Source: Marinococcus luteus (GTDB lineage: Bacteria; Bacillota; Bacilli; Bacillales; Marinococcaceae). From it: a DNA stretch of 32,000 bases. The stretch covers positions 138,958-170,957 of the forward strand of contig NZ_JAXRUV010000004.1 of the NCBI RefSeq assembly GCF_034497705.1. Reading direction: 5' to 3'. Under the pieces are notes generated by a model that was not told the DNA's origin, did no database searches, and saw only the letters and a program-made list of their open reading frames with translations. This document shows positions 1,100 to 12,537 of the stretch, one piece after another. A program made the position numbers and the translations under genes. The number at the start of each line of letters is the position of its first letter. The first letter of the stretch is position 1.

Positions 1100-1215
1100 A
1101 TTATAACCCCTATTACATCGAAGATTTCAATTCATTTGGCTAATATATAAAAGAACTATCTTTGTCTCTCATTGTTACATGCGTTACTAATTAATTGTAT
1201 ACTATTGTTAATTCA

Positions 1216-2151
1216 TTAAACAGTAGCAGCTGTGGGGTCGATATTTTTTGGCTTAAAATTGGAATATTGCGCAAAGGTAGCCCTTTGAAATCGCAGGTAA
1301 TTTTCTTCTATAAAATCATAAAACATCTTTTGCCCTTTATCTTTCAGGATAAACATAGCTTTTTCCATAGATCGTAAAGCGTTCGCGTATTCGCCCATAT
1401 AAAATAAAGCTACACCCTTTTGGTAATAAAGTTCACCTAACAGATACACTGATTCTATGTCGTATATATATTTTACTCCTTCATTTGCGACTTCCAGGCT
1501 TTTTTCAAACTGCATGGCTTTGGAGTATACAATGCACAAATTCATATAAATTTTTGTTTTGGAAGTATCCCATTGCGCTACAGGAAGTTTTGTATAAAGA
1601 GCAAGAGCCTCATTAAAATAATAAATGGCGTCTTTATACTCGTTCATATCCATATATACTGTACCAATATTTATATATATACCAATATCTTCTTCTGTAA
1701 TGCTTAAAGAACCTGTATCCACATCCAGGGCCAACTGTAATAATTCCAGGGATTCTTCTTTTTCAAGTGTTAATTTAGAGTGGCAGGCGGCTCTTTTCCA
1801 TAACAAAAATTTAAGATGGACAGGCTTTCGAAATAGTGGATTTTTTAATTCTTGTCTAATGATTTTCATTGCTTCTTCTAATTCATATATACGTACCAGT
1901 TTATCAATTTTATCCTTAGTCTCCTGTATATAGTTAAATCGTGGAGCTTCATGATCTTCAAAAAAATAACTAATCTTCACTCCTAGTTTTATTGCCATTT
2001 GATGGAGTATATCTGCGGTCGGCTGTATTTCTCCCCGTTCAATTTTGGAGACAGCTCTTTGAGAACAAATACTTTCAGCTAGTTCTCTTTGACTTACTTC
2101 GTAGTACTGTCTTAAATCTTTTAATTTTTTCCCGACATTTGAATCTTCCAT
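1216..2151 (-). CDS. XRE-family HTH transcriptional regulator with C-terminal TPR-like peptide-sensor domain (RNPP / Rgg / PlcR-like)
   Basis: 311 aa. The N-terminal segment VGKKLKDLRQYYEVSQRELAESICSQRAVSKIERGEIQPTADILHQMAIKLGVKISYFF is a canonical Cro/C1-XRE HTH. The remainder is helical-repeat-like with TPR-style pairs (EYKDAIYYFNEALALY, MQFEKSLEVANEGVKY, GEYANALRSMEKAM). The size is comparable to PlcR and Rgg. The SD AAAGGTGG lies 4-5 nt before the ATG. Confidence 0.8.
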   Translation of the reverse strand: MEDSNVGKKLKDLRQYYEVSQRELAESICSQRAVSKIERGEIQPTADILHQMAIKLGVKISYFFEDHEAPRFNYIQETKDKIDKLVRIYELEEAMKIIRQELKNPLFRKPVHLKFLLWKRAACHSKLTLEKEESLELLQLALDVDTGSLSITEEDIGIYINIGTVYMDMNEYKDAIYYFNEALALYTKLPVAQWDTSKTKIYMNLCIVYSKAMQFEKSLEVANEGVKYIYDIESVYLLGELYYQKGVALFYMGEYANALRSMEKAMFILKDKGQKMFYDFIEENYLRFQRATFAQYSNFKPKNIDPTAATV

Positions 2152-2165
2152 ACAACCACCTTTTA

Positions 2166-2179
2166 AGAACTATAGTTCT
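2166..2179. promoter_or_regulatory. Perfect 14-bp palindrome AGAACTATAGTTCT between the predicted regulator promoter and its SD (candidate operator or 5'-UTR hairpin)
   Basis: Read directly from the sequence. It is self-complementary over all 14 nt and lies 15-28 nt upstream of the regulator ATG (2151). Confidence 0.4.
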
Positions 2180-2190
2180 AGTCACTTTAG

Positions 2191-2199
2191 ATTTTACCA
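2191..2199 (-). promoter_or_regulatory. Candidate extended -10 promoter (TGgTAAAAT) for the regulator gene
   Basis: The minus strand reads TGGTAAAAT. There is no good -35. A start site here would place the 14-bp palindrome just downstream of it. Confidence 0.3.
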
Positions 2200-2267
2200 C
2201 AATTCTAGAGCTTTCACCTAATTATTGGGCAATGAATGCATTAGAAGCCCAAAGATATTTATATACG

Positions 2268-2287
2268 TATATGTCATAATGCATATA
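2268..2287. promoter_or_regulatory. Inverted repeat TATATG-N8-CATATA (PlcR-box-like spacing) upstream of the mini-ORF
   Basis: The 6-bp arms are perfectly complementary. The inner 16 nt TATGTCATAATGCATA match 9 of the 10 specified positions of the recalled PlcR box TATGNAN4TNCATA. The repeat ends 3 nt before a -10-like AATAAT (2291-2296). It overlaps a second palindrome, ATATACGTATAT (2261-2272). Confidence 0.35.
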
Positions 2288-2327
2288 GAAAATAATTACA
2301 AAGTTTCTTGTAGGAGGGTTGTTTTCA

Positions 2328-2432
2328 GTGAAAGCTAATTTGATTAAATTGACTGTAGCTATAGGGTTAGTAACAACGGCTGGTGCTGCTGGCGATTTCC
2401 AGTTACTAGTTAACTTGCCGGGAATAATGTAA
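2328..2432 (+). CDS. Unannotated 34-aa ORF: putative secreted signalling pro-peptide MKANLIKLTVAIGLVTTAGAAGDFQLLVNLPGIM
   Basis: GTG start at 2328, preceded by AGGAGG(G) at 2312-2318 with a 9-10 nt spacer. TAA stop at 2430-2432. It is divergent from the XRE-TPR regulator and followed by its own terminator. It is too short to appear in the supplied ORF track. Confidence 0.55.
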   Translation: MKANLIKLTVAIGLVTTAGAAGDFQLLVNLPGIM

Positions 2433-2514
2433 TTATTTTTAAATAATTGTAAACCGTCACCCTCGACACACGTTTCACACCATTAACCAAGCTTACCCCT
2501 GTTATATTTTTTGT

Positions 2515-2551
2515 ATCCCTTGCAGTTTAGCTGGCAGGGGATTCTTTTTTT
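2515..2551 (+). terminator. Rho-independent terminator downstream of the mini-ORF
   Basis: A 9-bp stem pairs ATCCCTTGC (2515-2523) with GCAGGGGAT (2534-2542), including one G.U pair on the plus-strand RNA. The loop is 10 nt, followed by TTC and T7 (2545-2551). Confidence 0.65.
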
Positions 2552-2591
2552 ACTTACTTTCCAAACATTTATCTACATAGGAGGAGTGGCC

Positions 2592-2903
2592 ATGCATCCG
2601 GATCAATACATTGCTTACTTTGTAGATCAGTTTTTGTACCAGCTGGATCGTGCGGACGACCCGGCCGAGCTCTGCAAGCTCCGCGATCAGGTGTTTGAAC
2701 AAGTCGCCCTTATCGGCGCCCGTATCCCTTATATTGAAATGATGGGCGCCATCTGGCACAAACACCCTGCCATCCTTCAGGAAGCACTCGAGAAAGAGCC
2801 TGTCTGTTATGGTCTTTTAGTTGATACGTTTCAGTACATTTCTTCGAATCAGTTTGTGTATATGCGCTGGCGGCTGAACGAATGGGCCAGGCTTTCTGCG
2901 TGA
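2592..2903 (+). CDS. Hypothetical protein (103 aa, predicted helical, no family recognised)
   Basis: ATG at 2592 is preceded by TAGGAGGAGTGG. The longer ORF-track start (2511) would run through the terminator hairpin. Composition is close to the core genes. Translation begins MHPDQYIAYFVDQFLYQLDRADDPAEL. Confidence 0.6.
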   Translation: MHPDQYIAYFVDQFLYQLDRADDPAELCKLRDQVFEQVALIGARIPYIEMMGAIWHKHPAILQEALEKEPVCYGLLVDTFQYISSNQFVYMRWRLNEWARLSA

Positions 2904-2943
2904 ACAGAAAATAGGTTATATTCGGCAAAATATCGGGAAAATA

Positions 2944-2968
2944 CCCTCCACCTATAGTTTACGGAGGG
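2944..2968 (+). promoter_or_regulatory. Hairpin pairing CCCTCC (2944-2949) with the GNAT Shine-Dalgarno GGAGGG (2963-2968)
   Basis: A 6-bp all-GC/AT stem with a 13-nt loop. The 3' arm is the only SD for the ATG at 2977. No T-tract follows, so it is not a terminator. Confidence 0.3.
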
Positions 2969-2976
2969 GATAAAAA

Positions 2977-3564
2977 ATGGCTGATTTTACCGTGGATTCC
3001 CAGATATACCTTCGCCCGTTTAAAGATAAGGACGCTGCCGATTATCTGCAGCTGGTGGAGGATAATCGTTCATACCTGCGTCATTGGCTTCCCTGGGTGG
3101 ATAAGACACGCGAGCTGCGTGACGTACTCCGTTTTTTTGAATACCGGGCCAAGCTTGCCCGCCGCGGCACCTCTTACACGTTTGGTATCTGGTACGAAGG
3201 CAGGCTCGCCGGTGCGATCAGCTTCAACCATGTGTACCGACTGACCCGGCGCACCGTTATTGGCTACTGGCTCGCCGCCCCCTTTCAGGGCAAAGGCATT
3301 ATGACCCGGGCGGTACAGACATTGACTGATTATGCCTTTCGGGATATTCATCTTAGGCGTGTGGATATTTGCGTTGCTCCGGATAATCGGCCCAGCCGTT
3401 CAATTCCGGAACGGCTCGGCTTTGAAAAATATAAGTATGTGCGTAATGCCGAATGGCTGTACGACCATTATGTCGATCACGTTGTCTATACGATGCGTTC
3501 GCGCTTCTGGCTGCCAGCTATTCTTGGTCCCGGCATGGAGCATACAAAAACCCCGCAGTTTTAA
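2977..3564 (+). CDS. GNAT N-acetyltransferase, RimJ/RimL (ribosomal-protein-serine acetyltransferase-like) family
   Basis: 195 aa. The YLRPFKDKDAADYLQLV opening, the WLPW motif, and the acetyl-CoA motif A region WLAAPFQGKGIMTRAVQTLTDYAF are typical of Acetyltransf_3-type GNATs. Confidence 0.85.
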   Translation: MADFTVDSQIYLRPFKDKDAADYLQLVEDNRSYLRHWLPWVDKTRELRDVLRFFEYRAKLARRGTSYTFGIWYEGRLAGAISFNHVYRLTRRTVIGYWLAAPFQGKGIMTRAVQTLTDYAFRDIHLRRVDICVAPDNRPSRSIPERLGFEKYKYVRNAEWLYDHYVDHVVYTMRSRFWLPAILGPGMEHTKTPQF

Positions 3565-12519: not shown

Positions 12520-12537
12520 CAGGAACATACGTTCCTG
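12520..12537 (-). other. Intergenic hairpin CAGGAAC-ATAC-GTTCCTG between pcrB and pcrA
   Basis: A perfect 7-bp stem with a 4-nt loop. No T-tract follows on the minus strand, so it is not a classic terminator. It may be an mRNA processing or stability element. Confidence 0.3.

What the first reader, a model, noticed from the sequence alone, without database searches (positions are those of the whole stretch)
2328..2432. Unannotated 34-aa ORF with the anatomy of a signalling pro-peptide
Reading from GTG at 2328 gives MKANLIKLTVAIGLVTTAGAAGDFQLLVNLPGIM, ending at TAA (2430-2432). AGGAGG(G) at 2312-2318 sits 9-10 nt upstream. The N-terminus is basic (K2, K7). A hydrophobic core LTVAIGLV follows, then a small-residue stretch T-A-G-A-A-G with an AXA-like site (A18-G19-A20). 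The C-terminus is a 12-residue hydrophobic tail beginning with the only acidic residue (D23). As recalled, streptococcal SHPs mature to C-terminal octapeptides starting with Asp or Glu (e.g. DIIIIVGG), and PapR and NprX mature from the C-terminal part of Sec-exported precursors. A mature signal within DFQLLVNLPGIM is therefore plausible. The ORF is below the length cut-off of the supplied ORF track and would be missed by standard annotation.
Basis: partly seen in the sequence, partly recalled or inferred. Interest (0 to 1): 0.75.

Follow-up and report, generated by a model that had tools for sequence, protein, structure and literature searches.

The report
Unannotated PapR-like quorum-sensing pro-peptide gene
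The 34-codon ORF is a real but unannotated gene that most likely encodes the secreted signal peptide for the PlcR-type quorum-sensing receptor next to it, so it is a correct call and an annotation gap but an ordinary member of a well-known class of bacterial cell-to-cell signalling systems.

Summary
GTG 2328 to TAA 2432 encodes MKANLIKLTVAIGLVTTAGAAGDFQLLVNLPGIM, with AGGAGGG 9-10 nt upstream. The divergent neighbour (1216-2151, minus strand) is a 311-aa HTH+TPR regulator. Its best sequence and fold matches are PlcR of Bacillus thuringiensis. In 11 orthologous loci from Marinococcus, Alteribacillus and Sinobaca, a 33-36-aa ORF sits at the same place. The proposed frame is the only stop-free frame in all of them. 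Third codon positions are saturated while positions 1 and 2 are constrained. Each copy has its own SD, extended -10 element and terminator. All share a basic N-terminus, a ~15-residue hydrophobic core, a small-residue/Gly-Asp junction and a C-terminal xx[L/F]P[G/H]xx heptapeptide. That heptapeptide is in the same register as PapR7 (ADLPFEF). The regulator+sORF block (about 1200-2450) is a sharply bounded hypervariable cassette. Its synonymous sites are far more diverged than those of the syntenic flanks, which is a pherotype-locus signature. The exact M. luteus-type peptide is absent from a 15-billion-protein collection, and no curated model matches it. Related PlcR-subfamily pairs with the same divergent layout are already catalogued (RRNPP_detector). 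I therefore call it a new member of a known kind. Secretion, the mature form, the operator and the regulon are all inferred.

The parts
2328..2432 (+). sORF coding a 34-aa pro-peptide. Signal-peptide-like residues 1-22 (n-region MKANLIK, h-region LTVAIGLVTT, c-region AGAAG); exported part D23-M34; proposed mature heptapeptide V28-M34 (VNLPGIM).
   Evidence: Orthologues in 11 loci. It is the only stop-free frame in all of them, and variation is biased to third codon positions.
2312..2318 (+). Shine-Dalgarno sequence AGGAGGG of the sORF.
   Evidence: AGGAGG/GGAGG sits at the equivalent position in every orthologue.
2272..2280 (+). Putative extended -10 promoter element of the sORF (TGTCATAAT). 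No good -35 element.
   Evidence: TGTnAnAAT is found in 10 of 12 intergenic regions, 47-59 nt upstream of the sORF start. It is one of only two conserved blocks there. Its promoter function is inferred.
2515..2551 (+). Intrinsic-terminator-like hairpin (2515-2542) plus a T-run (2545-2551) downstream of the sORF.
   Evidence: An equivalent GC-rich hairpin plus T-run follows the sORF in all 12 sequences. The consensus scan did not list it, presumably because of its loop/bulge limits.
1216..2151 (-). Cognate receptor: a 311-aa PlcR-subfamily RRNPP regulator with an N-terminal HTH_3, a linker helix, TPR repeats and a C-terminal capping helix.
   Evidence: Pfam HTH_3 4.8e-10, RNPP_C 1.1e-10, TPR_1/2 about 8e-12. 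PDB phmmer best hit PlcR 2qfc, 2.5e-14 over residues 3-267. AF2 model pLDDT 83.9. Foldseek top hits PlcR 3u3w/2qfc/4fsc.
2166..2179 (.). Conserved palindrome AGAACTATAGTTCT. It extends to a ~20-bp dyad in some alleles. It is the candidate operator and lies between the regulator's -10 and its SD.
   Evidence: It is one of only two conserved blocks in the otherwise saturated intergenic region, present in all 12 sequences, with single-base variants in L007 and L066. It is unique in the 32-kb window. Extended symmetry TTAAGtACTATAGTtCTTAA is seen. The binding protein is not identified.
2191..2199 (-). Putative extended -10 of the regulator gene (TGGTAAAAT on the minus strand).
   Evidence: TGnTAnAAT-like elements align at this position in the orthologues. 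Function is inferred.
1201..2450 (.). Hypervariable, low-GC (about 33%) allelic block holding exactly the regulator, the intergenic region and the sORF.
   Evidence: GC profile. Nucleotide identity to M. halotolerans falls from 85-97% to 49-75% only in this interval. pS is 0.78 in the regulator against dS 0.42-0.58 in the flanks.
2592..2903 (+). Orphan 103-aa gene (unk103) that always follows the sORF. It may be a read-through output of the system. Its membership in the system is uncertain.
   Evidence: Syntenic in all orthologous loci. Only about 28 nt separate the terminator T-run from its SD, and no promoter was found there. No family, PDB or usable fold information.

Best explanation
The sORF 2328-2432 is a translated gene. 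It encodes the secreted pro-peptide, a PapR analogue, of a two-gene RRNPP quorum-sensing cassette. Its receptor is the divergently transcribed PlcR-subfamily regulator at 1216-2151.

Proposed mechanism:
1. The sORF is transcribed as its own short unit, from an extended -10 promoter to its own terminator. The elements are shown in the sequence; their function is inferred.
2. The 34-aa precursor is exported by Sec. Signal peptidase I cuts at the conserved small-residue/Gly|Asp junction and releases DFQLLVNLPGIM (inferred from the anatomy).
3. That 12-mer, or more likely a C-terminal fragment trimmed outside the cell, is re-imported by an oligopeptide permease. The best guess for the fragment is the heptapeptide VNLPGIM. 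This rests on analogy with PapR7, PapRa7 and PhrA7.
4. The peptide binds the TPR groove of the receptor and changes binding of its HTH dimer to DNA.

The most likely operator is the conserved palindrome AGAACTATAGTTCT. It lies just downstream of the receptor gene's own -10. That position suggests autorepression relieved, or altered, by the peptide, as in TprA/PhrA (inferred). Other regulon members are unknown. The orphan gene directly downstream of the sORF is a candidate output.

The cassette is ancestral to the Marinococcus/Alteribacillus/Sinobaca lineage. It sits at a fixed chromosomal site and has diversified into distinct peptide-receptor alleles (pherotypes).
For: - Receptor identity: HTH_3 + RNPP_C + TPRs. 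PlcR is the best solved relative by sequence (2.5e-14, full length) and by fold (Foldseek 6e-11).
- Real gene: the sORF is found at the same divergent position (169-188 nt from the receptor start) in all 11 orthologous loci from three genera. The proposed frame is the only stop-free frame in all 12 sequences. Position-3 variation is 13/13 and 14/14 codons, against 8, 7 and 6, 4 at positions 1 and 2. Window vs M. luteus DSM 23126 shows 4 synonymous and 1 non-synonymous change. Within-clade dN/dS is 0.3-0.5.
- Own expression signals are conserved: SD, extended -10 element and terminator.
- Anatomy is conserved: net +2/+3 n-region, 15-18 uncharged h/c residues, an [A/S/T]-G|D junction and a C-terminal V-x-[L/F]-P-[G/H]-x-x.
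- Family-wide pattern: 41 of 61 receptor homologues have an adjacent Sec-like sORF. Most end in xx[L/I]Pxxx, for example EDLPYCH, AGIPSEH and KDIPYIH. This is the register of PapR7 ADLPFEF (PMC2441798) and PapRa7 CSIPYEY (PMC3519770).
- Co-divergence: the regulator and sORF form one block with nucleotide identity 49-75% against 85-97% in the flanks, and saturated synonymous sites against dS about 0.5 in the flanks. The TPR domain diverges faster than the HTH.
- Precedent: a 36%-identical homologue on the A. pseudofirmus OF4 plasmid is filed as subfam_03_PlcR, with the same divergent layout and a SignalP Sec/SPI call for its 37-aa peptide (peptide read).
- No Rfam family matches the region.
Against: - There is no experimental evidence of translation, secretion, processing, import or binding.
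- SignalP could not be run. The signal-peptide call rests on heuristics and on a published prediction for a distant homologue (probability 0.65).
- No curated Pfam or NCBIfam model matches any of the 14 peptides, even at E<=10.
- The receptor lacks PlcR's Lys87/Lys89 gatekeepers (it has R87/Y89, alignment; PMC2441798), and the peptide has no Glu. The peptide code therefore differs from PapR, and the heptapeptide length is an extrapolation. In two bridging homologues the LP core is shifted by one residue (…LPGIHT, …LPYIHT).
- No conserved operator lies near the sORF promoter, so autoinduction of the peptide gene is not supported.
- The one conserved palindrome shares its GAAC-N4-GTTC core with the Bacillus LexA box (PMC9578287) and may not be the receptor's site.
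- No Opp permease lies in the window.
Confidence: 0.8

Rival explanations
1. SHP-type signal. The precursor is not a Sec substrate. It is cut inside the membrane by an Eep-type protease just before Asp23 and exported by a PptAB-type ABC transporter. The active signal is the Asp-initiated peptide DFQLLVNLPGIM or a shorter Asp-initiated fragment, sensed by an Rgg-like receptor.
For: The precursor is short (33-36 aa), which is closer to SHPs than to the 48-aa PapR. The divergent gene layout resembles rgg/shp pairs. Asp after the hydrophobic segment is invariant in the 12 close orthologues. Rgg2 and ComR are second-tier structural hits.
Against: The receptor passes Pfam RNPP_C (41.9 bits, cutoff 26.5) but fails Rgg_C (16.3 bits, cutoff 27). 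PlcR is clearly the best hit by sequence and fold. The peptides have a canonical n/h/c layout with -3/-1 small residues before the Asp. The census obtained a Sec/SPI prediction for the OF4 homologue. The strongest family-wide conserved feature is the C-terminal [L/I]-Pro core, not an Asp-initiated hydrophobic octamer.
Confidence: 0.08
2. A small hydrophobic membrane protein or type I toxin-like micro-protein. It would only happen to lie next to the regulator and would act in the membrane of the producing cell rather than as a diffusible signal.
For: Hydrophobic 33-36-aa products with a basic N-terminus are also typical of small membrane proteins. No secretion data exist.
Against: The uncharged stretch is only 15-18 residues and ends in small residues, which fits a signal peptide rather than a transmembrane helix. 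The most conserved part is the polar/Pro-containing C-terminal tail, not the hydrophobic segment. Adjacency to an RRNPP receptor is conserved, and the pair co-diverges as one block. No antisense RNA family or other known RNA was found.
Confidence: 0.04
3. A regulatory leader or arrest peptide (MifM/SecM-like monitor, or an attenuation leader). Its translation would control read-through of the downstream hairpin into the orphan gene unk103.
For: The order sORF, hairpin plus T-run, unk103 is conserved on one strand. There is almost no room for a separate unk103 promoter. An upstream C-rich element can pair alternatively with the terminator arm. The peptide has an N-terminal export signal and a conserved Pro-containing C-terminus, as secretion monitors do.
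Against: The sORF stop codon lies about 60 nt upstream of the first alternative-pairing element and about 145 nt upstream of the unk103 SD. That is too far for a stalled ribosome to remodel those structures. The hairpin does not sequester the SD. This model does not explain the conserved pairing and co-divergence with a TPR peptide receptor.
Confidence: 0.03
4. A chance ORF in AT-rich intergenic DNA, not translated.
For: In a single genome, an SD-preceded ORF of at least 30 codons arises in 3.8% of shuffles. The peptide is absent from protein databases for this species.
Against: The frame, length, SD and stop are kept in 12 sequences whose synonymous sites are saturated. All other frames carry stops, and variation shows strong position-3 bias.
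Confidence: 0.01

Closest known systems
PlcR-PapR of the Bacillus cereus group (PDB 2qfc, 3u3w; PMC2441798)
   Same: The receptor has the same architecture (HTH_3, linker helix, TPR repeats, capping helix) and PlcR is its best sequence and fold match. The pro-peptide is small with an N-terminal Sec-type signal. Its conserved C-terminal heptapeptide has a hydrophobic residue plus Pro at positions 3-4, as in ADLPFEF. The receptor-peptide pair has diversified into alleles, as the four PlcR pherotypes have.
   Different: Identity to PlcR is only about 24%. The peptide gene is divergent and upstream, not co-directional and downstream. The precursor is 34 aa rather than 48. The heptapeptide has no Phe-Glu-Phe core, and the receptor has R87/Y89 instead of the K87/K89 gatekeepers. 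There is no conserved PlcR box (TATGNAN4TNCATA): the single 1-mismatch look-alike at 2270-2285 is not above chance and is not conserved. The host is a halophilic, non-pathogenic coccus and the regulon is unknown.
Candidate PlcR-subfamily pair on the Alkalihalophilus pseudofirmus OF4 plasmid (ADC52264.1/ADC52265.1), catalogued by RRNPP_detector (PMC10075063, supplement)
   Same: The receptor is 36% identical (P0016). The divergent layout '(<==== =>)' is identical. The peptide is 37 aa with a predicted Sec/SPI signal and ends in …LDLPYIHT, an LP-core C-terminus.
   Different: That pair is plasmid-borne and sits next to an integrase. It lacks the Gly-Asp junction and the V-x-L-P-[G/H] motif. It has not been tested experimentally either. 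Marinococcus, Alteribacillus and Sinobaca do not appear in the census text or the supplements held.
TprA/PhrA and TprA2/PhrA2 of Streptococcus pneumoniae (PlcR family; PMC5436883)
   Same: The receptor belongs to the PlcR family. The active signal is the C-terminal heptapeptide of a Sec-predicted precursor. The regulator acts as a repressor whose inhibition is released by the peptide. That is the mode suggested here by an operator placed just downstream of the receptor gene's -10.
   Different: The peptide code is different (LDVGKAD/VDLGLAD, no Pro core). The host is a streptococcus and the known output is a lantibiotic cluster. The repressor mode is only inferred here.
PlcRa-PapRa of B. cereus (PMC3519770)
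   Same: A PlcR paralogue whose peptide gene lies upstream of the receptor gene. Its heptapeptide has an Ile-Pro core (CSIPYEY). No PlcR box is used.
   Different: PapRa is 93 aa and its active heptapeptide is internal rather than C-terminal.
Rgg/SHP systems of streptococci
   Same: Short hydrophobic precursors and divergent receptor/peptide genes. Target genes often lie downstream of the peptide gene.
   Different: The receptor fails the Rgg_C model. SHPs lack a Sec cleavage site and use Eep/PptAB. The conserved core here is the C-terminal LP motif.

Membership tests
RRNPP quorum-sensing pair (five-criterion signature of PMC10075063) | Pro-peptide is small (10-100 aa) | tested here: met
   34 aa in the window; 33-36 aa in the orthologues.
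RRNPP quorum-sensing pair (five-criterion signature of PMC10075063) | Pro-peptide carries a Sec/SPI secretion signal (SignalP) | tested here: inconclusive
   SignalP was not available. Heuristics are met: n-region charge +2, a 15-residue uncharged h/c region, and -3/-1 small residues (AGA|A, AAG|D). A distant homologue scored Sec/SPI 0.65 in the published census.
RRNPP quorum-sensing pair (five-criterion signature of PMC10075063) | Receptor is 250-500 aa | tested here: met
   311 aa.
RRNPP quorum-sensing pair (five-criterion signature of PMC10075063) | Receptor contains TPRs | tested here: met
   TPR_1 7.8e-12, TPR_2 8.4e-12, RNPP_C 1.1e-10, all above their cutoffs. The AF2 model shows an all-helical repeat domain.
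RRNPP quorum-sensing pair (five-criterion signature of PMC10075063) | Receptor and pro-peptide genes are direct neighbours | tested here: met
   176-nt divergent intergenic region. Adjacency is kept in all 11 orthologous loci.
RRNPP quorum-sensing pair | Mature peptide is re-imported and binds the receptor to change its activity | not testable with these tools
   This needs binding assays and genetics. The only indirect support is co-divergence of the peptide with the TPR domain.
PlcR subfamily (receptor) | HTH-linker-TPR-capping-helix protein whose closest characterised relative is PlcR | tested here: met
   phmmer vs PDB: PlcR 2.5e-14 over residues 3-267; the next RRNPP hits are >=1e-3. Foldseek top three hits are PlcR entries, ahead of ComR, Rgg2 and PrgX. 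A 36%-identical homologue is filed under subfam_03_PlcR.
PlcR subfamily (receptor) | Binds the PlcR box TATGNAN4TNCATA | tested here: not met
   There is one 1-mismatch look-alike (2270-2285), which is not above chance (2 found vs 0.79 expected) and is absent from the other alleles. The conserved dyad is AGAACTATAGTTCT instead.
PlcR subfamily (receptor) | Lys87/Lys89 gatekeepers pairing with Glu6 of the peptide (PMC2441798) | tested here: not met
   The aligned residues are R87 and Y89 (alignment). The peptide has Ile/Val/Ala at position 6. Asn204 (aligned with PlcR N201) and the LLGELYYQKG motif (PlcR LIGQLYYQRG) are conserved.
PapR-type pro-peptide | C-terminal heptapeptide with a hydrophobic-Pro core at positions 3-4 is the active form | tested here: inconclusive
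   The sequence pattern is met: VNLPGIM, VSLPHAY and others match the register of ADLPFEF. Activity and length are untested, and the register is shifted by one in L062 and L067.
PapR-type pro-peptide | Recognised by a curated peptide-family model | tested here: not met
   No Pfam-A or NCBIfam model relevant to signalling peptides matches any of the 14 peptides at E<=10.
Rgg/SHP | Receptor matches the Rgg C-terminal domain | tested here: not met
   Rgg_C scores 16.3 bits against a cutoff of 27.
LexA (Cheo) box, as a reading of the conserved palindrome | CGAAC-N4-GTTCG placed over a promoter (PMC9578287) | tested here: inconclusive
   The core GAAC-N4-GTTC is present in the window and L001. Most orthologues have GTAC in one half-site, and the C/G flanks are missing. 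The symmetry extends to about 20 bp in some alleles, which is longer than a LexA box. The only other core match in the window lies after a -10 upstream of pcrA.

The most novel reading that the evidence does not exclude
The cassette may be more than a textbook two-gene loop. It could be an ancient, chromosomally fixed three-part module: receptor, peptide, and an orphan 103-aa output gene expressed by read-through of the peptide gene's terminator. Its peptide/receptor alleles are far older than the surrounding chromosome, suggesting trans-specific pherotype polymorphism or allelic exchange. The receptor promoter may be gated by a GAAC-N4-GTTC box bound by LexA, so that DNA damage would control whether the cell listens to the signal.
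Probability: 0.15. Interest if true: 0.55.

Novelty: new member of a known kind. Interest (0 to 1): 0.3.

Why it matters
It fills an annotation gap. The signal gene of a quorum-sensing system is missing from the M. luteus gene set, and gene callers find it only inconsistently in related genomes. It extends the PlcR branch of RRNPP signalling to moderately halophilic cocci (Marinococcus, Alteribacillus, Sinobaca), where no cell-to-cell signalling is described in the literature I could search. It provides a compact set of natural receptor/peptide alleles (VNLPGIM, VNLPGVA, VHLPGAA, VS[L/F]PH[A/V]Y, VTLPHAY, VTLPHIH). These sit at one fixed locus with sharply bounded divergence, which makes them a convenient system for studying how peptide-receptor specificity evolves. 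It does not change the current understanding of RRNPP systems.

Tried and rejected
1. PlcR box. The look-alike TATGTCATAATGCATA at 2270-2285 overlaps the sORF -10. It is not above chance and is not conserved, so I rejected it as an operator.
2. Allele-specific dyads upstream of the sORF promoter. TTGGGC-N16-GCCCAA occurs at 2225-2252 in the window and L001, and TACGA-N3-TCGTA in L003 and L007. Their positions are inconsistent and most alleles have none. Not used.
3. unk103 function. There was no Pfam, NCBIfam or PDB match. Only Marinococcus homologues turned up in the word-indexed search. The AF2 model has pLDDT 57.9, too poor for a fold search, so I stopped.
4. LexA regulon check. Au et al. 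2005 is not held, and two other papers did not state whether pcrA is LexA-regulated. That point rests on my memory only.
6. Known RNA families: none in 1100-3000 at E<=1.
7. Curated peptide families: none match.
8. An alternative cognate peptide downstream of the regulator (1100-1215): no SD-preceded Sec-like ORF there.
9. Lipoprotein or double-glycine bacteriocin precursor. There is no Cys/lipobox, no GG-leader and no transporter or peptidase gene nearby. Rejected.
10. Recent horizontally acquired island as the cause of the low GC. Rejected, because the cassette is syntenic between gatB/unk103 and dagK in three genera.
Full report
**Observation.** The ORF is exactly as described. GTG 2328 opens 34 codons that end at TAA 2430-2432 and encode MKANLIKLTVAIGLVTTAGAAGDFQLLVNLPGIM. 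AGGAGGG at 2312-2318 lies 9-10 nt upstream. The mechanical ORF list extends the frame to TTG 2319, but that codon abuts the SD, and the orthologues start at the position aligned with GTG 2328, mostly with ATG. In isolation the ORF is only modestly unusual: 3.8% of shuffles of the 2152-2591 region yield an SD-preceded ORF of at least 30 codons.

**Surroundings.**
- The divergent neighbour (1216-2151, minus strand, 311 aa) has HTH_3, RNPP_C and TPR domains, all above Pfam cutoffs. Rgg_C is below its cutoff.
- Its best solved relative by sequence is PlcR (2qfc, E 2.5e-14, residues 3-267).
- An AlphaFold model (pLDDT 83.9) finds PlcR entries 3u3w, 2qfc and 4fsc first, ahead of ComR, Rgg2 and PrgX.
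- The two genes lie in a ~33% GC stretch within ~49% GC flanks.
- The rest of the window is housekeeping: dagK-like, GNAT, gatCAB, ligA, pcrA, pcrB, an adenine deaminase-like gene and purD among others.
- A 100%-identical neighbour protein identifies the source as Marinococcus luteus.

**Comparative test of the sORF.** The regulator has close homologues in Marinococcus, Alteribacillus and Sinobaca (48-93% identity) and remoter ones in other Bacillaceae. I fetched 61 genomic loci and six more contigs.
- All 11 orthologous loci of the close clade carry a 33-36-aa ORF at the same divergent position, each with an AGGAGG/GGAGG SD.
- The proposed frame is the only one without stops in all 12 sequences.
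- In the C-terminal tail every third codon position varies (13/13 and 14/14), against 8, 7 and 6, 4 for positions 1 and 2.
- Window vs M. luteus DSM 23126 differs by 4 synonymous changes and 1 non-synonymous change. Within-clade dN/dS is 0.3-0.5.
- A TGTnAnAAT extended -10-like element lies about 50 nt upstream in 10 of the 12 sequences, and a GC-rich hairpin plus T-run follows the sORF in all 12.
- No Rfam family matches the region.

The ORF is therefore a real protein-coding gene with its own expression signals.

**Anatomy.**
- All orthologues have a +2/+3 n-region and 15-18 uncharged residues that end in small residues.
- Gly-Asp follows and is invariant in the 12 close orthologues.
- The tail is 11-12 residues long and ends V-x-[L/F]-P-[G/H]-x-x.
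- The hydrophobic stretch is too short for a membrane helix and has -3/-1 small residues, as a type I signal peptide does.
- Among the 61 receptor homologues, 41 have an adjacent SD-preceded Sec-like sORF in divergent, convergent or co-directional layout.
- Most of these end in a heptapeptide with [L/I]-Pro at positions 3-4: EDLPYCH, AGIPSEH (in 3-4 tandem copies) and KDIPYIH.

This is the register of the experimentally defined PapR7 (ADLPFEF, the C-terminal heptapeptide, whose central Pro is thought necessary to fit the groove; PMC2441798) and of PapRa7 (CSIPYEY; PMC3519770). C-terminal heptapeptides are also the active form in TprA/PhrA (PMC5436883). I therefore propose VNLPGIM as the most likely mature signal. 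The 12-mer released by signal peptidase is the alternative. This step is inference.

**The 'islet'.** The order gatB-(GNAT)-unk103-sORF-regulator-dagK is conserved in all three genera, so this is not a recent insertion. Between the window and M. halotolerans, nucleotide identity is 85-97% in the flanks. It falls to 49-75% only between about 1200 and 2450, which is exactly the regulator, the intergenic region and the sORF. The minimum lies over the sORF and its promoter. Flank dS is 0.42-0.58, the same as between the window and the other M. luteus strain. The regulator, by contrast, is saturated (pS 0.78) and the sORF has dS 0.95. Within the receptor, the TPR domain diverges faster than the HTH and linker (62% vs 75-80% identity). 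Old, co-diverging receptor/peptide alleles inside a younger chromosomal background are the pattern known from pherotype loci such as plcR-papR.

**Regulatory DNA.** Apart from the two -10-like elements and the SDs, the only conserved intergenic element is the palindrome AGAACTATAGTTCT (2166-2179). It is unique in the window, present in all orthologues with single-base variants in L007 and L066, and extends to a ~20-bp dyad in some alleles. It lies between the regulator's putative extended -10 and its SD, a position that suggests repression of the regulator's own gene. My preferred reading is that it is the receptor's operator, with the peptide modulating autorepression as in TprA/PhrA. However, its core equals the core of the Bacillus LexA box CGAAC-N4-GTTCG (PMC9578287). 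The only other GAAC-N4-GTTC in 32 kb lies just after a -10 upstream of pcrA. The flanks, the centre and (in most alleles) one half-site deviate from the LexA consensus. I leave this unresolved, at roughly 55% own operator and 20% LexA. No conserved operator lies near the sORF promoter, so autoinduction of the peptide gene is not supported.

**Possible output.** The orphan gene unk103 (2592-2903) follows the sORF on the same strand in every orthologous locus. Only about 28 nt separate the terminator's T-run from its SD, and no promoter was detected there. Read-through from the sORF promoter is therefore plausible. I could learn nothing about its function.

**Comparison with the known.** The pair meets four of the five computational criteria for an RRNPP system (PMC10075063). 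The fifth, a SignalP call, is met only heuristically. It belongs to the PlcR branch by sequence and fold, but it is not a PlcR/PapR orthologue.
- It has no PlcR box.
- It has no K87/K89-Glu6 gatekeeper pair (PMC2441798).
- The gene order is divergent.
- The precursor is shorter.
- No curated model matches the peptide.

A 36%-identical homologue on the A. pseudofirmus OF4 plasmid, with the same divergent layout and a Sec/SPI-predicted 37-aa peptide, is already catalogued under subfam_03_PlcR. Marinococcus, Alteribacillus and Sinobaca are not mentioned in either census or in the supplements held. The M. luteus-type peptide is absent from a 15-billion-protein collection. The Sinobaca orthologue is deposited only as 'hypothetical protein', and one Alteribacillus assembly has no gene called there.

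**Verdict.** The refinement is that the right analogue is PapR/PlcR, not SHP/Rgg. This is a new member of a known kind. It is useful as an annotation correction and as a natural series of specificity alleles, but it would not surprise a specialist. Interest 0.3.

Noticed in passing
window 12523-12534: GAACATACGTTC is the only other GAAC-N4-GTTC in the window. It lies directly after a TATACT -10-like hexamer, 29 nt upstream of the pcrA start codon, and is probably an SOS (LexA) box. I recall pcrA being in the B. subtilis LexA regulon but could not verify it.
   Followed up: partly
window 2592-2903 (+): An orphan 103-aa all-helical protein with no Pfam, NCBIfam or PDB match. Its homologues occur only in the clade that has the signalling cassette. 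It always lies directly downstream of the sORF with almost no room for its own promoter. It is the fastest-evolving gene between the two M. luteus strains (84% aa identity, against 94-97% for its neighbours).
   Followed up: partly
window 2494-2542: A C-rich element (ACCCCTG, 2494-2500) upstream of the terminator can pair with the same GGGG arm as the proximal stem, giving two alternative hairpins. A similar ACCCC element precedes the terminator in the other genera. In Marinococcus an extended -10-like TGTTATATT (2500-2508) sits between the two.
   Followed up: no
window 2225-2252: The dyad TTGGGC-N16-GCCCAA sits just upstream of the weak -35 region of the sORF promoter. In M. luteus DSM 23126 the arms are kept while two spacer bases differ. 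The other alleles lack it.
   Followed up: partly
L040 3912-4127, L041 3914-4144, L043, L046, L056: Cytobacillus/Bacillus homologues of the receptor have a co-directional downstream pro-peptide of 61-76 aa carrying 3-4 tandem copies of (A/L)GIPSEH. This is an example of the tandemly duplicated pheromone pro-peptides described in PMC11343458.
   Followed up: no
L014, L016, L020-L025, L027, L029, L030, L036, L053 (about 190 nt, 269 nt in L016, downstream of the receptor, opposite strand): A third layout: convergent 43-46-aa Sec-like pro-peptides that all end in …DEDLP(Y/W)CH, in Guptibacillus, Pseudalkalibacillus and relatives. The conserved Cys in the putative heptapeptide is unusual.
   Followed up: no
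L067 2633-3885 (Bacillus sp. LL01): The receptor homologue here is followed by FeeM-like, PP-binding (carrier protein) and FabA/ApeI-like genes. This suggests a small acyl-amino-acid or polyene-type biosynthetic cluster as a possible quorum-sensing output in that species.
   Followed up: no
L063 2712-2816 versus L064-L066 and L062: Gene calling is inconsistent. The orthologous sORF is called in some assemblies (34, 34, 33 and 37 aa) but not in the A. bidgolensis contig or the M. luteus genomes. Census tools that rely on annotation will miss part of this family.
   Followed up: yes
window 1101-1200: The 116-nt spacer between dagK and the regulator's stop codon is 97% identical between M. luteus and M. 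halotolerans, which is higher than the coding flanks. It marks an abrupt left boundary of the hypervariable block and could serve as a recombination anchor.
   Followed up: no
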